Virus record (IMG/VR): IMGVR_UViG_3300031998_000017
Coordinates: 32,001-96,000 of that record
Source: a virus
Lineage: Duplodnaviria > Caudoviricetes
DNA: 64,000 bases
Reading direction: 5' to 3' (one strand)
In this document: piece after piece, positions 31,817 to 36,417 of the stretch
How positions within the stretch are numbered: the stretch's first letter is position 1
How the letters are laid out: every line of letters starts with the position of its first letter
The notes under the pieces: model-generated
Seen by the model: only the letters and a program-made list of their open reading frames with translations
Database searches by the model: none
What the model was told of the DNA's origin: nothing
Position numbers and translations under genes: made by a program

Positions 31817-34354
31817 ATGTCAATAGCAAATAGAATAGAACAAATAAAAGAGCATATTAATAATGCTTATAGCACTCTTGAGATAGGTGGAGCTAATATT
31901 AATTCTATTAATAAAAATATAGATAATATTAGCTCTTCTCTTGAAGAGAGATTAATATATTATATGAATAATGGATTAAGTGTAGTATGAAATAATTGAA
32001 ATAAAATAACTAGTAGTGGAGCTTTATTAGAATTACACAACACAATTAAAGCACCTATTTCTTTAACTTTAAAAGGAAATACTGTTCAAACTACTTTTAC
32101 TGGGAAAAATAAACTTAATTATGTTGATAATTTAAGAGCAAGTTATGGAGGACTAACAAGTGTAATAAATAGTGATGGTAGTATTACAACAACTGGATTA
32201 CCAAATGGAGACTATAGATGTATTTTAGAATATAATATAACTGATGATTTAGAAGACGGAGCTACATACACTTTTTGACAAGAAACTGCAAATGCTCATT
32301 TATTATATTTGCAAATAAATGCAAAAGATATAAGTACTTCTCAAATGGCTTATTACTCTTTAAATACAGGAGAGGCAAAGAAAACTTTAACAATAAATAA
32401 AAGTAAATATACTTATACTATGAATATTCAAACAGAAAGTGTATCTAGTTGAAATCAAACTTCTAAAACGTTAACCAATAAATATATGTTAGAAAAAGGT
32501 AGCGATAAAACATCTTTTGAGCCGTATTGTGGTGCAGAACCTAGTCCAAATCCATTATATCCGCAAGAGGTTCAAGTGGTAAAAGGTCATAACTCTACTA
32601 AGGTTAACGGAAAAAATTTATTTGATGGAATGTTTAGACAGGGTGGCTGATCTGGCCCTGCCACAACTAGAGTTATGTCTGTTAATGGAATTGTTACAGA
32701 TAATACATCAACACAATATACAATATCAACTAATTTAGATACAAGCACATATTGTTGAGGAGTAAGCGAAAGTAAACAAACTTTACCTAGAACTTCTTTT
32801 GATGAACTTTTTAATTCTGGTTGATTAACAACTTCTTCATATACTTTTACTTGTTCTAAGAATGGCTATCTTTATATTACTATTGCTGCGGCAAATAAAA
32901 CTGATGATGTCAGTATAAATGCGGTTAAAGATTTTAAGTTTCAAGTTGAAAGAGGTGGAATAGTAACAGAATATGAAGTTTATGATGGAAAAGTGTATCC
33001 AATAAGTTTTCCTGTTGAAAATAAATGATATATAGAACCTCAATCAGCAATTGGAGTTACATTATCTTATCAAGATGGTGTAACTATTTTAAATGGAACA
33101 ACCAATACTACTTGAGGAGCTTTGAGACAAGCTGTAAATTTAAGTGGAACCTATACTTTAAGTGTAGAAACTGATGCAATTAAAAATAATGTTTATGTAA
33201 GAATAAGAGATTCAAATGAAAATATTTTACAAACAGTATCAATTGCAAATAGTACTAAAGGTTTTGCAACAATAACAAGTAATGATATTGCTTATTTAGA
33301 AATTACTTTAGGAGCGCAAAATATAAATTTTGATAGACAGAAAATAAAAATTCAATTAGAGCAAGGAGACAAAGTTAATGATTTTACTCCTTATGGTGTT
33401 GAACCCATTGAGTTTTGTAAAATAGTTGATAACTCTGATGTTATTAAAAAAGGAACTGGAAAAAATAAAATAACCTTTCTTCCTCAGACAAAAACAATGA
33501 ATGGTTTAACTATGGTTGCTAATGAAGATGGTTCTTTAAGAGTGTATGGAACTGCTACTGCCACAGGTTCTACATATTTCACTTTAAAAGAAAATATTCT
33601 TTTAGGCAATAAAACATATTCATTTAGCGGAAAAGTAATGGGTACATTAAATGATAATTTATGTTCACTTAGGTTAGTAGATTCTGATGGCAATAGTTTT
33701 AAAAATGATTTTTTAACAATTAATAGTTCTATAGTTAGAAAATTAACTTCATCAGCAGAAAATGGTAGAAATTTTATTAAATGTTTATTCTATTATACAA
33801 ATGGTACTAAATGTGATTTCACAGTATATTATCAATTAGAAGAGAATTCTGTTGTTACTGAATGGGAACCAGGAAATTCTAAAGATAAGTGGTATATTGA
33901 AAAACAAATAGGTTATAGAGATATTTTGGGAACAGGAGATACTGCTGCTGCAGGACCTGTTTCAGAAGGTTTTTATTTAAATACAGGAGGAGTAAATTGA
34001 AATCATTCTCTTGCTTCTAAAGATGTATTTGTAAATAAATTTATTGCATATCCAACTTATAGTGCTTATAACGCACAATCAAATGCTATGGGTTATATAT
34101 ATACTTCAGTTAATCAATTATATATAAAAGTAAAAGGTATTTCAACATTAGAGGCTATGAATACTTTTTTAAGCAGTAATAATGTAAGAGTATATTATGT
34201 ATTGAATGCATATCGTTATATTATATTAAATGACACTCTTCAAAAACAATTAAATGATATTCAAGATATGAAAAGTTTTGATAATATAACAATTTTAACT
34301 CAAGATAATAATTATTTACCAATAGATTGAAATGTTGGTATTTTAACAAAATAG
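31817..34354 (+). CDS. Modular tail fibre/receptor-binding protein (845 aa, code 4)
   Basis: MSIANRIEQIKEHINNAY N-terminus followed by one copy of the same module. In-frame TGAs; ends at TAG 34352-34354. Confidence 0.8.
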
Positions 34355-34378
34355 AAATAAAAAGAAAAGGAAATTGAA

Positions 34379-34588
34379 ATGAAAGATTTATTAGAATTGT
34401 ATCGTAATTATCTTTTTACTTTACAAGAAAGAGCAGAGTATGGAGATAGATATGGCGATACAGATGAAATTGTGAAACACTACGAAAAAGTGTTAAAATT
34501 AAAACGCGCGAACCCGGTTAAGAATCCTAGAGGTGGATCCTTACAAAATAACCCGGGTTCCGCATGAAAGGGAAAGAGAGAGGAGTAA
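34379..34588 (+). CDS. Small hypothetical protein (69 aa in code 4; stops at 34567 in code 11)
   Basis: AAAGGA RBS and ATG; one TGA at 34565; TAA at 34586-34588, 4 nt before the next ATG. Confidence 0.5.
34506..34563. other. GC-rich nested stem-loop upstream of the lysis cassette
   Basis: GAACCCGG (34510-17) pairs with CCGGGTTC (34553-60). Inner TAAGAATCC/GGATCCTTA stem has one mismatch. A T-rich run follows on the minus strand. Confidence 0.7.
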
Positions 34589-34592
34589 AAAC

Positions 34593-34733
34593 ATGGAAGA
34601 AGAAATTCTAGTAGAAGGTTTAGAAGATAATGAACCATTCTATGCAGCTATTGGCGATATTCAAGATGTATATGATGAAGTAGAACCAGTAGAAGAAAAC
34701 GAAGAAAATAAAGAAGAAAGGGAGGAAGAATAA
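34593..34733 (+). CDS. Small, highly acidic peptide (46 aa)
   Basis: AGGAG RBS; MEEEILVEGLEDNEPF...EEREEE; stop lies 1 nt before the endolysin ATG. Confidence 0.6.
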   Translation: MEEEILVEGLEDNEPFYAAIGDIQDVYDEVEPVEENEENKEEREEE

Positions 34734-34734
34734 T

Positions 34735-35760
34735 ATGGCTATATTAATGACAGGACAACAATTAGCAGATAAATGTAAAAATGTCGCATTAAATTATAAA
34801 ACATTATATGTTTATGGATGCTTTGGTGCGCCAATGAACGCTAGAAATAAAGAAAGATATAAACATAATTATGCTTATAATGAACAACCTTCAAGACAAG
34901 CAAAAATTAACGCAGCTAGCTCTAACACATTTGGATTTGACTGTGTTAATATGATTAAAGGTATTTTATGGGGTTGGAACGGTAATGTAAATGCTACATA
35001 TGGAGGAGCTGTATATGGTTCTAATGGTGTACCAGACACTAGCGCTGATGGTTTAATGAACTATTGTACTGGTGTATCAACTAATTTCTCTAATATTCAA
35101 GTTGGTGAAATGGTTCATATGGCAGGACATATAGGAGTATATATCGGTAATGGTTTAGCTGTTGAATGTACACCAATCTGGAAAGATGGATGTCAAATCA
35201 CAGCAGTAGGTAATATTGGTAAAAAATCTGGATATAATACTCGTACATGGACTAATCATGGAAAATTAAAATTCATTGATTATGGCAGTACACCTACACC
35301 AGGAGGATTCCTACCACCAAGAGGATATTTCCAACCAGGAGATAGTGGCGCAAATGTAGAAAAAATTGACGCATTCTTATCTCATCAAACAACAGGAGAT
35401 TTCTTTGGTACATTCACTAAATATGCAGTTAAAGCATTCCAAACTGAATGTGGATTAGAAACTGATGGAAATATTGGTCCTCTTACATTAGGTAGAATGA
35501 AAGATAAAGGTTTAGATAAAAATGTTAATCTACCTTCAAGAGGTTATTATAGAGTTGGAGATAGTGGAAGTGCAATAAATAAAATTGATGCTTTCTTAGC
35601 TCAAAGAATTCTTGGAGATTATTATGGTAATTATACTAAACATGCAGTTATGGCTTTACAAGAGAAAGGTAAAACTGAAGGACGTTATCATGATGATGTA
35701 GATGGATATTTTGGACCACTTACTCTAGCTTGTGCAGAGGCATATGGTTTTAAATATTAG
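34735..35760 (+). CDS. Endolysin: NlpC/P60-CHAP-like peptidase plus two peptidoglycan-binding (PG_binding_1-like) repeats
   Basis: FDCVNMIKG...HIGVYIGNG catalytic Cys/His; two repeats of T..AV.A(F/L)Q....L..DG..GPLTL. Confidence 0.88.
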   Translation: MAILMTGQQLADKCKNVALNYKTLYVYGCFGAPMNARNKERYKHNYAYNEQPSRQAKINAASSNTFGFDCVNMIKGILWGWNGNVNATYGGAVYGSNGVPDTSADGLMNYCTGVSTNFSNIQVGEMVHMAGHIGVYIGNGLAVECTPIWKDGCQITAVGNIGKKSGYNTRTWTNHGKLKFIDYGSTPTPGGFLPPRGYFQPGDSGANVEKIDAFLSHQTTGDFFGTFTKYAVKAFQTECGLETDGNIGPLTLGRMKDKGLDKNVNLPSRGYYRVGDSGSAINKIDAFLAQRILGDYYGNYTKHAVMALQEKGKTEGRYHDDVDGYFGPLTLACAEAYGFKY

Positions 35761-35771
35761 GAGGTATTAAT

Positions 35772-36245
35772 ATGTGGGAAGCAGTATGTGCAACTTTAAA
35801 CATTGTTATGTGGATTGGAGTAGTTCTTGGACTATTGTTAATCGTTAATACAATGTGCGGAATTATTTGTAATATTAATAAAGGAGAACAATTCTCATGG
35901 AATAAATTCTTTCAAGGAATTGGAAAAGCTTTGGCATTTTATCTTGGCATTGCTTTATTGAGTGTTGTTTCTACTTTGTTACCTTTCGTTAATGCAATGG
36001 TAATAGAAGTATTTAATATTGAATTATTATCTTCATCTGTATTAAGTACTTTATCTACTGCAGCTATATTCGGAATTGCAGCTGCCGCTATTACTGTTCA
36101 AGGTAAAAAAGCACTTGAAAATTTATTTGAATTAGCTAAATTATCAGTAGGTAATATTGAATTAAAGAAACAAATGGTTGCGGAAGAAGAAGACAACGAA
36201 GAAGAAACTCAAGAGGAAGAAAAAGAAGAAGAATATAGTGAATAA
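35772..36245 (+). CDS. Holin-like membrane protein
   Basis: Three hydrophobic segments and an acidic tail, directly after the endolysin. Confidence 0.7.
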   Translation: MWEAVCATLNIVMWIGVVLGLLLIVNTMCGIICNINKGEQFSWNKFFQGIGKALAFYLGIALLSVVSTLLPFVNAMVIEVFNIELLSSSVLSTLSTAAIFGIAAAAITVQGKKALENLFELAKLSVGNIELKKQMVAEEEDNEEETQEEEKEEEYSE

Positions 36246-36264
36246 AACTATATTCTTTTTTTTT
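36228..36264 (+). terminator. Intrinsic terminator
   Basis: AGAATATAGT-GAATAAA-ACTATATTCT followed by a T-tract. Confidence 0.7.
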
Positions 36265-36299
36265 ATTGAAATTTTTTAGCAAAAATTTTAATAAAACTT

Positions 36300-36316
36300 G
36301 GGACAAAGTTTATAAT
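36300..36316 (+). promoter_or_regulatory. Putative late promoter motif (copy 4)
   Basis: GGGACAAAGTTTATAAT. Confidence 0.5.
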
Positions 36317-36360
36317 TCATTCATTTTAAAATTCATATATACATGAAGGGAAATGAATGA

Positions 36361-36417
36361 AAGAGACCGTATGGTAAGAAGTATTCATTTCTTGCTATGC
36401 GGTCTTTTTTTGTTTTT
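36361..36417 (+). terminator. Terminator/attenuator-like hairpin just before an RBS
   Basis: AGACCGTATGGTAAGAA / TTCTTGCTATGCGGTCT followed by T-tract, then AGGAGG. Confidence 0.65.

What the first reader, a model, noticed from the sequence alone, without database searches (positions are those of the whole stretch)
34379..34735. Lysis-cassette leader with a GC-rich hairpin, a single TGA and a chain of coupled micro-ORFs
Seen: a 58-nt, unusually GC-rich nested stem-loop (34506-34563) lies in a small ORF and ends 1 nt before an in-frame TGA (34565). In code 11 the ribosome stops 25 nt before the next start. In code 4 it runs over the AGGAG RBS and stops 4 nt before the ATG of a 46-aa acidic peptide, whose stop is 1 nt from the endolysin ATG. 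Inference: a code-sensing translational-coupling switch could time lysis even though the endolysin has no TGA. Alternatively the hairpin is an antisense terminator or small RNA, since a T-rich run follows it on the minus strand.
Basis: inference. Interest (0 to 1): 0.72.

Follow-up and report, generated by a model that had tools for sequence, protein, structure and literature searches.

The report
Lysis-module leader with conserved hairpin
In this cattle-gut phage, which reads TGA as tryptophan, the stretch before the endolysin holds a real small gene, a conserved 58-nt hairpin and a conserved acidic mini-protein, but the single TGA varies among close relatives and is not a conserved lysis switch.

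Summary
The hairpin at 34506-34563 is real and is among the ten most stable 64-nt stretches on the + strand of the 135-kb genome.

The 62/69-aa ORF is a real gene of a small, unnamed phage family. Only its first ~45 residues are conserved. The hairpin persists in 19 related loci, always once and always just before the lysin's ribosome-binding site. It also persists where the ORF is absent (L001), degenerate (L032) or stops inside the loop (L012, L013). So it probably acts as nucleic acid, although formal covariation is weak.

The TGA is not conserved. The codon is TGA, CGA or AGA among near-identical relatives, and recoded relatives L001 and L012 have no TGA anywhere in leader, lysin or holin. 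Both downstream Shine-Dalgarno sites are predicted to be unpaired, so coupling is not obligatory. The minus-strand T-run disappears wherever the upstream sequence does not encode lysines.

The 46-aa acidic peptide belongs to a conserved micro-protein family (GD..V..E motif). Its stop always abuts or overlaps the start of this NlpC/P60-like lysin.

My best reading is an ordinary lysis-module leader with an uncharacterised RNA stem-loop, probably a processing or stability element. The code-sensing switch is unlikely (about 7%).

The parts
31817..34354 (+). Tail-fibre-like gene that ends the structural block (845 aa under code 4; 11 TGA against 2 TGG)
   Evidence: In relatives, at least three unrelated fibre C-termini precede the same leader.
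34379..34588 (+). Small gene 'ORF69': 62 aa if TGA stops, 69 aa if TGA = Trp. Residues 1-45 are the conserved domain of an unnamed phage family.
   Evidence: 10 homologues at 63-93% identity. 49 clusters at E<=1e-3, typically 50-70 aa, matching profile positions 1-50. No Pfam or PHROG hit.
34506..34563 (.). Conserved 58-nt GC-rich nested stem-loop: an 11-bp basal stem with one bulge and an 8-9-bp inner stem. The strand of action is unresolved.
34565..34567 (+). In-frame TGA (codon 63 of ORF69). Polymorphic in relatives: TGA, CGA or AGA.
34568..34588 (+). Polypurine tail holding the GAGGAG Shine-Dalgarno site (34580-34585) and the TAA stop of the long ORF69 form (34586-34588)
   Evidence: The SD is predicted unpaired, P 0.87. 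The same layout is found in all clade A and B relatives.
34593..34733 (+). 46-aa acidic micro-protein, a member of a conserved 24-50-aa family with invariant G21, D22, V26 and E29
   Evidence: Its stop always lies from 1 nt overlapping to a few nt (at most 5) before the lysin ATG.
34720..34726 (+). Shine-Dalgarno site (GGGAGGA) of the endolysin, inside the acidic ORF
   Evidence: Predicted unpaired, P 0.96.
34735..35760 (+). Endolysin: NlpC/P60-like Cys/His N-terminal domain plus PG_binding_1 repeats. 0 TGA, 4 TGG.
35772..36245 (+). Holin-like membrane protein with an acidic tail. 0 TGA, 3 TGG.
36222..36264 (+). AT-rich hairpin followed by a T-run straight after the holin (canonical terminator type, shown for contrast)
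   Evidence: I22. A second, strong terminator lies at 36361-36408.

Best explanation
This is the head of the phage's lysis module. It is not a genetic-code sensor. The module has four parts:
1. A real small gene of unknown function (ORF69).
2. A conserved 58-nt stem-loop that overlaps ORF69's poorly conserved 3' tail and is kept for its own sake.
3. A polypurine Shine-Dalgarno tract.
4. A conserved acidic micro-protein whose stop abuts the start of an NlpC/P60-type endolysin, followed by the holin and a terminator.

The TGA is an ordinary recoded Trp codon, or a harmless early stop, in a tail that tolerates W, R or truncation.

I infer that the stem-loop acts as RNA in the + strand late transcript. 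It would be an intercistronic processing, stability or boundary element: a double-stranded substrate for an RNase III-type cut, or a barrier to exonucleases. It sits 7-21 nt upstream of the purine-rich ribosome-binding site, so the lysis message would be set apart from the much more abundant fibre message.

The acidic peptide is made with the endolysin by termination-reinitiation and probably works with it.

Shown here: the anatomy; conservation of the hairpin independent of coding; polymorphism of the TGA; conservation of the peptide family and of the coupling geometry.

Inferred: action at the RNA level, the strand, processing or stability as the function, and peptide-lysin partnership.
For: Hairpin:
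- It is found once per locus in 20 loci, always at the junction before the lysin's SD, and nowhere else in 206 kb searched.
- It is 58-59 nt long in 19 of the 20, despite different interiors.
- Both arms are retained in L001, which has no ORF69; there the hairpin is intergenic and 20 nt shorter.
- It is intact in L032, where ORF69 is degenerate.
- In L012 and L013 the ORF stops in the loop and the non-coding 3' arm has a different sequence that still pairs with the 5' arm.
- It precedes two unrelated lysin types: NlpC/P60-like, and an M23-like 296-aa protein followed by a holin.
- Compensated pair 8-54: U-A in 7 sequences, C-G in 2. 87.6% of cells are paired, against 16-57% when partners are slid.
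- It has no U-tract on the + strand, whereas the genome's other top hairpins are canonical terminators.

TGA:
- Polymorphic in relatives.
- TGA = W is shown by TGA/TGG columns in the lysin alignment.

ORF69 is a real gene.

Acidic peptide:
- Conserved with its lysin across 10 loci, including distant ones where a holin lies upstream.
- Complex prediction gave weak support: score 0.42 against a best control of 0.00. That mark was reached by 58 of 80 solved complexes and 2 of 110 mismatched pairs, but scores at or under 0.60 came from only 7 of those 80 and from both passing mismatches. Runs agree in at least 56% of contacts. The partner's pLDDT is at least 45.

From established knowledge: phage SP82 early mRNA carries RNase III hairpins (cited in PMC4838370), and a purine-rich SD-like tract stabilises the downstream RNA (Hue et al. 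1995, cited in PMC7509114).
Against: - Formal covariation is weak. Only one of 11 basal pairs changes on both sides, and the covariation score was reached by 17 of 500 shuffles. The relatives are close, so much of the conservation could be shared descent.
- Folding energies do not favour one strand consistently across variants. A DNA-level role or a minus-strand role is therefore not excluded.
- L020 lacks the hairpin through a clean 111-nt in-frame deletion, so it may be dispensable.
- There is no Rfam match.
- RNase III cleavage is a resemblance recalled from known systems, not a test.
- Peptide-lysin binding has only weak in-silico support.
Confidence: 0.45

Rival explanations
1. Code-sensing coupling switch. 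Early in infection TGA stops the ORF69 ribosome 25 nt short of the next start. Once the phage's tRNA(UCA) is made, the ribosome runs over the SD to the TAA 4 nt before the ATG and hands on to the acidic ORF and the endolysin. This would time lysis even though the lysin has no TGA.
For: - The geometry is exact and the long-form stop position is conserved.
- Lysin plus holin have 0 TGA of 7 Trp codons, against 95 TGA: 67 TGG in the structural genes.
- The three ORF69-bearing loci whose lysin shows no TGA (window; L015 and L020, both partial) all carry the leader TGA. 12 loci with CGA or AGA all have 2-4 TGA in the lysin.
- The general idea that recoding gates lysis is published (Borges et al.).
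Against: - The TGA is polymorphic among near-identical relatives.
- L035 has TGA in both the leader and the lysin.
- L012 (ORF69 present) and L001 are recoded phages with no TGA in leader, lysin or holin.
- The downstream SDs are strong and predicted unpaired, and 25 nt is still within reach for reinitiation, so no on/off mechanism is evident.
- The association rests on one complete and two partial lysins in related lineages.
- The cassette follows heavily recoded fibre genes and is probably transcribed late anyway.
Confidence: 0.07
2. DNA-level element. The inverted repeat (invariant 5' arm GCGCGAAYCCGRT) is a protein-binding site, or a conserved linker at a mosaic junction where fibre modules and lysis modules are exchanged by recombination.
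For: - The 5' arm is invariant in all 20 copies, including the non-coding ones.
- There is no consistent strand preference in folding.
- The same ORF69-hairpin block is flanked by at least three unrelated fibre C-termini upstream and by two lysin types downstream.
- The interior deletion in L001 is 20 nt, about two helical turns.
Against: - The 3' arm changes sequence while keeping complementarity (L012, L013, L032, the 8-54 pair). That points to pairing rather than to two identical half-sites.
- No candidate binding protein has been identified.
- The motif occurs once in the genome.
Confidence: 0.2
3. No function of its own. The hairpin is a passively inherited piece of the ORF69 tail, or a decayed terminator, and has not yet diverged among close relatives.
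For: - Weak covariation statistics.
- Natural deletion in L020.
- ORF69 homologues elsewhere are followed by ordinary terminators (L022-L024), so a terminator relic is conceivable.
Against: - It is retained where the ORF is lost or degenerate (L001, L032), while the neighbouring sequence has diverged or been replaced.
- The arms re-pair after the interior deletion in L001.
- L012 and L013 have alternative 3' arms that still pair.
- It is among the ten most stable structures on the + strand of a 31%-GC genome.
Confidence: 0.15
4. Minus-strand intrinsic terminator, or the 3' end of an antisense small RNA that covers the lysis start sites.
For: - In the window the minus strand folds better (-29.2 kcal/mol, z -4.3) and is followed by GUUUUAAUUUU.
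- L012 and L013 also have T-rich tails on the minus strand.
Against: - The T-run is the complement of Lys-rich coding (LKLKR). It is absent in L001 and L032 and poor in L011 and L015.
- Promoter-like sites on the minus strand are no more frequent than chance and are not conserved.
- All genes from 1 to 42.7 kb lie on the + strand.
- In half of the variants the + strand is the more stable one.
Confidence: 0.06

Closest known systems
Stop-codon recoding as a gate on late and lysis genes in TGA-recoded 'Agate'-type gut phages (Borges et al., bioRxiv 10.1101/2021.08.26.457843)
   Same: A ~135-kb low-GC gut phage with TGA = Trp concentrated in structural genes. The fibre gene next to the lysis cassette is heavily recoded. 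The phage carries its own tRNA(UCA). Replication genes are largely free of TGA.
   Different: Here the endolysin and holin themselves contain no TGA (0 of 7 Trp codons). The only TGA in the cassette head sits in a non-conserved tail of a leader ORF and is polymorphic. Recoded relatives exist whose lysis cassettes are completely TGA-free.
Translational coupling by termination-reinitiation (for example RNA phage MS2 coat to lysis gene, or overlapping TAATG junctions in operons)
   Same: The stops lie 3-4 nt before the next ATG (ORF69 to peptide), or 1 nt before it to 1 nt overlapping it (peptide to lysin). This geometry is conserved in relatives.
   Different: In MS2 the downstream start is closed and depends on the upstream terminating ribosome. 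Here both downstream starts have strong, accessible SD sites, so coupling is at most a modulator.
Intercistronic RNase III processing hairpins of phage mRNAs (T7 R sites; B. subtilis phage SP82) and the SP82-derived polypurine 5' stabiliser
   Same: An imperfect duplex of about 20 bp with an internal loop, lying between cistrons of a phage polycistronic message and followed within 7-21 nt by a purine-rich SD-like tract.
   Different: Cleavage is untested and there is no sequence similarity. The host and its RNases are unknown. In most relatives the hairpin overlaps a coding tail rather than being purely intergenic.
Rho-independent terminators
   Same: A GC-rich stem-loop at the end of a gene.
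   Different: There is no U-tract on the + strand. The T-run on the - strand is not conserved. The phage's evident terminators have AT-rich stems followed by long T-runs.

Membership tests
Recoding-gated lysis genes (Borges et al.) | The phage reads TGA as a sense codon in late genes and carries a suppressor tRNA | tested here: met
   Fibre ORFs of 2737-3533 aa open only with TGA as sense. TGA aligns with TGG in lysin homologues. tRNA(UCA) is present in the genome.
Recoding-gated lysis genes (Borges et al.) | In-frame recoded codons inside the lysis genes themselves | tested here: not met
   Window endolysin 0 TGA / 4 TGG and holin 0 / 3. The feature is met in clade-B relatives, which have 2-4 TGA in the lysin.
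   L012 (ORF69 without TGA; lysin and holin without TGA; phage recoded) and L001 (no ORF69, no TGA in the cassette). The codon is TGA, CGA or AGA in relatives.
Obligatory translational coupling (MS2-type) | Stop and next start overlap or lie within a few nt | tested here: met
Obligatory translational coupling (MS2-type) | The downstream start is inaccessible unless the upstream ORF is translated | tested here: not met
   SD sites GAGGAG and GGGAGGA have predicted unpaired probabilities of 0.87 and 0.96. This is a prediction only.
Intrinsic terminator | A U-tract directly 3' of the stem on the transcribed strand, conserved in relatives | tested here: not met
   On the + strand the tail is AUGAAAGGG. 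The - strand T-run is present in the window, L012 and L013 but absent in L001 and L032 and poor in L011 and L015.
RNase III-type intercistronic processing site | Imperfect duplex of about two helical turns, between cistrons | tested here: met
   11-bp basal stem plus 8-9-bp inner stem with an internal loop. The position before the lysin SD holds in 20 loci.
RNase III-type intercistronic processing site | Cleavage by RNase III in vivo or in vitro | not testable with these tools
   No RNA holder was listed among the public runs.
Any curated RNA family (Rfam 15) | Covariance-model match | tested here: not met
   Only a chance snoRNA hit at E = 4.2 elsewhere in 33800-36400.
Bacterial SECIS / read-through stimulator | Structure immediately 3' of the UGA | tested here: not met
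   The hairpin ends 1 nt 5' of the TGA. The sequence downstream is an unstructured purine tract.
DGR target-site hairpin (IMH-associated) | A reverse transcriptase and template repeat in the genome | tested here: not met
   No RVT_1 match in the 134.9-kb record.

The most novel reading that the evidence does not exclude
In lineages of this phage group that have purged TGA from the endolysin and holin, a single TGA in the leader ORF, translationally chained to the acidic peptide and the lysin, takes over the code-dependent delay of lysis. The gate would have moved from the enzyme to an upstream micro-ORF. The conserved hairpin would slow or space the ribosomes that feed the chain.
Probability: 0.07. 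Interest if true: 0.7.

Novelty: new variant of a known kind. Interest (0 to 1): 0.35.

Why it matters
The published idea that recoded phages delay lysis by placing recoded stops in lysis genes does not hold literally for this phage. Its lysin and holin avoid TGA (0 of 7 Trp codons) although the neighbouring fibre genes are full of it. That makes the head of the cassette the natural place to look for other controls.

Two conserved, undescribed parts are there:
- A structured 58-nt element kept at the fibre/lysis junction regardless of coding.
- A family of 24-50-aa acidic micro-proteins always chained to one type of endolysin.

Either could be a small new piece of lysis regulation, or could help express these lysins. 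Both can be tested cheaply with reporters. The specific 'code sensor' reading would be striking, but the comparative data mostly speak against it.

Tried and rejected
- Rfam scan of 33800-36400 at E<=10: nothing relevant.
- ARAGORN on the window: no tRNA, so the hairpin is not a tRNA or tRNA fragment call.
- INPHARED blastn of 33800-36300: no match.
- IMG/VR scans with ORF69 alone or as an alignment: no relatives.
- Public runs: no RNA holder listed. Laying contigs of four bovine-gut runs gave no cover of 34402-34554, so no extra hairpin variants.
- Pfam, PHROGs and the ESM Atlas gave nothing for ORF69. Pfam and PHROGs gave nothing for the acidic peptide; the Atlas was not queried with it.
- PDB sequence search of the lysin: only weak PG-binding hits.
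- Classical -1 frameshift site before the hairpin: no X XXY YYZ heptamer in frame (read).
- RF2-type +1 shift at GCA-TGA: no re-pairing possible.
- T4 gene-60-type bypass: the hairpin is not at a take-off codon.
- DGR hairpin: no reverse transcriptase.
- More distant lysin loci (L002-L008): no analogous GC-rich hairpin before the peptide or lysin.
It was re-sent with code-11 sequences only.
- Hue et al. 1995 could not be opened.
- Literature search for an acidic peptide coupled to an endolysin: no counterpart found.

Full report
WHAT IS THERE

The window is bases 32001-96000 of a 134.9-kb, 31%-GC IMG/VR phage record from a bovine gut sample. Under table 11 the structural genes fall apart. With TGA read as sense they fuse into fibre ORFs of 2737, 3533, 2809 and 845 aa. 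The genome carries 26 tRNA genes, among them one with anticodon UCA. In alignments of the endolysin with its relatives, TGA falls in columns that are otherwise TGG. So TGA = Trp in this phage group, as published for the 'Agate' gut phages.

All coordinates in the finding check out:
- ORF 34379-34567, extended to 34588 under code 4.
- Hairpin 34506-34563.
- TGA 34565-34567.
- 25 nt (code 11) or 4 nt (code 4) to ATG 34593.
- 46-aa acidic ORF to 34733.
- Endolysin ATG at 34735.

The hairpin folds at -24.4 kcal/mol on the + strand (z -2.7) and -29.2 on the - strand (z -4.3). It ranks 9th among 22,473 + strand windows of the whole genome. Most of the others in the top set are canonical terminators with T-runs.

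THE SMALL ORF IS A REAL GENE, BUT ONLY ITS FIRST 45 RESIDUES

A protein search found ten homologues at 63-93% identity. Residues 1-43 are almost invariant. The tail encoded by the hairpin region is variable or absent. A profile search of 1.84 billion representatives found 49 clusters. Most are 50-70 aa and match only profile positions 1-50. Homologues also occur in non-lysis settings, next to SSB, HNH or ParB genes or at the end of an operon before an ordinary terminator. There is no Pfam, PHROG or Atlas annotation.

THE HAIRPIN IS CONSERVED FOR ITS OWN SAKE

I retrieved 19 related loci that contain it. A covariance model finds exactly one copy per locus, always between the fibre/ORF69 side and the SD of the first lysis gene. 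It finds none elsewhere in 206 kb. In 19 of the 20 copies (window included) it is 58-59 nt long.

The informative cases:
- L001 is the closest relative by lysin (86%). It has no ORF69. The hairpin starts one base after the fibre stop. It has lost 20 interior nt but keeps both arms, which pair.
- L032 has a degenerate, frame-broken ORF69 behind a strong TTGACC-17-TATAAT promoter with an extended -10. Its hairpin is intact.
- In L012 and L013 the ORF stops inside the loop. The 3' arm is non-coding and has a different sequence that still pairs with the invariant 5' arm. The gene that follows is a different lysin: an M23-like 296-aa protein, then a holin.

Pair 8-54 is U-A in seven distinct sequences and C-G in two. 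L012 has an A-U where the others have G-C.

The formal count is modest. 87.6% of cells are paired, against 16-57% for slid partners. Only one of 11 pairs changes on both sides, and 17 of 500 shuffles reach the observed covariation score. The sequences are close relatives. So the case rests on persistence without coding rather than on covariation statistics. L020 has lost the hairpin and half of ORF69 through a clean 111-nt in-frame deletion.

THE TGA IS NOT A CONSERVED FEATURE

Codon 63 is TGA in the window, L015, L020 and L035. It is CGA in nine loci and AGA in four. L035 differs from its CGA siblings at that codon by one C/T. In the Arg-codon relatives the ORF runs in any code to the same TAA, 3-4 nt before the next ATG. 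The long form is therefore the common one, and in the window the TGA most simply reads as Trp.

At first there seemed to be an anticorrelation: leader TGA where the lysin has none, and leader Arg where the lysin has 2-4 TGA. More loci weakened it:
- L035 has both.
- L029 has a TGA at codon 55 as well as lysin TGAs.
- The lysins of L015 and L020 are only partly sequenced.
- L012 is recoded (5 TGA in its fibre gene) and has ORF69, lysin and holin all without TGA. L001 (8 TGA in its fibre) likewise has a TGA-free cassette.

Mechanistically, both downstream starts have strong SD sites that are predicted to be unpaired (0.87 and 0.96). A structure 5' of a stop codon cannot act like a SECIS or a read-through stimulator. 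I put the switch at about 7%.

THE MINUS-STRAND TERMINATOR READING

The T-run is the complement of the Lys-rich LKLKR codons. Where that coding is absent (L001, L032) the run is absent, and in L011 and L015 it is poor. Minus-strand promoter-like sites are at chance level (22 found against 18.9 expected) and are not conserved. Across variants the more stable strand is + in about half and - in about half. No RNA run is available.

THE ACIDIC MICRO-ORF

The 46-aa peptide has relatives of 24-50 aa in every locus that carries this NlpC/P60-like lysin. That includes distant phages in which a holin, not ORF69, lies upstream. G21, D22, V26 and E29 are invariant. Its stop lies from 1 nt overlapping (TAATG) to at most 5 nt before the lysin ATG. 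It is absent before the M23-like lysins of L012 and L013.

A complex prediction with the lysin's catalytic half gave weak support. The score was 0.42 against a best control of 0.00. That mark was reached by 58 of 80 solved complexes and 2 of 110 mismatched pairs, but scores at or below 0.60 came from only 7 of those 80 and from both passing mismatches. The runs agree in at least 56% of contacts, and the partner's pLDDT is at least 45. This is a lead, not a demonstration.

HOW IT MOST LIKELY WORKS

The block ORF69 + hairpin + purine-rich SD is a conserved head of the lysis module. It is joined upstream to at least three unrelated fibre C-termini and downstream to two kinds of lysin.

The hairpin has no U-tract on the + strand, so it is not the phage's usual kind of terminator. 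Its form is about 20 bp with an internal loop. It sits between cistrons of a late message, 7-21 nt before a polypurine ribosome-binding tract. That is what one sees at RNase III processing sites of T7 and SP82 mRNAs, and at the SP82-derived 5' stabiliser. This comparison comes from established knowledge, cited through PMC4838370 and PMC7509114, and was not tested here.

I therefore favour a + strand RNA element that sets the lysis message apart from the fibre message in processing or stability. Confidence in the whole reading is about 0.45. A DNA-level junction or binding site stands at about 0.2 and no function at about 0.15.

A POINT WORTH KEEPING

In this phage the lysin and holin use 0 TGA among 7 Trp codons, while the structural genes use 95 TGA against 67 TGG. 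That runs against the published tendency for lysis genes to be preferentially recoded in such phages, and relatives differ in this respect.

VERDICT

The hairpin and the coupled micro-ORF chain are conserved. The code-sensing switch and the antisense terminator are not supported. This is a new variant of a known kind, of moderate interest.

Noticed in passing
window 34735-36245, compared with 489-34354: The endolysin and holin use no TGA for Trp (0 of 7), whereas the adjacent structural genes use 95 TGA against 67 TGG. Clade-B relatives carry 2-4 TGA in the homologous lysin, at columns 81, 129, 150 and 269. This runs against the published trend of preferential recoding of lysis genes.
   Followed up: partly
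G000:C1:121092-121187 (outside the window): The tRNA with anticodon UCA is 96 nt long, and ARAGORN types it as SeC-like. Its identity elements and its long extra arm or insert were not examined. It lies in an array of 26 tRNAs.
   Followed up: no
G000:C1:115820-116228 (outside the window): ARAGORN calls a tmRNA-like gene with tag peptide ANKVKSLFSFNRVSFA inside the phage's tRNA array.
   Followed up: no
L032:780-966: A relative in which ORF69 is truncated and frame-broken but preceded by a near-consensus SigA-type promoter (TTGACC, 17 nt, TATAAT with an upstream TG). The hairpin and the lysis genes behind it are intact. This suggests the lysis module can have its own promoter.
   Followed up: partly
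L020:1108-1212: A clean 111-nt in-frame deletion removes codons 28-62 of ORF69 and the whole hairpin, but keeps the TGA, the purine tail and the coupled chain.
   Followed up: partly
L014, L018, L019, L022-L025: ORF69-family genes also occur away from lysis cassettes. They lie next to SSB-like, HNH and ParB/TAGT genes, or as the last gene before a canonical terminator. This is a small mobile phage gene of unknown function.
   Followed up: partly
upstream of ORF69 in L011-L037: At least three unrelated fibre-gene C-termini are joined to the same purine-rich ORF69 leader. This marks a mosaic junction between the host-range and lysis modules.
   Followed up: partly
G000:C1:7100-12000 (outside the window): A cluster of GC-rich hairpins interspersed with repeated AAAAAGTGTAAAG...TTGACA-type motifs stands out among the most stable structures of the genome.
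   Followed up: no
window 36361-36408: A very strong canonical terminator (20-bp stem, long T-run, -31.6 kcal/mol) lies about 115 nt after the holin. It lies between the holin and the next gene block.
   Followed up: no
L007:3748-3999 and window 36180-36245: Holin-like proteins in this group end in acidic tails that resemble the free-standing acidic peptide. In L007 such a protein directly precedes the lysin and no separate peptide is present.
   Followed up: no
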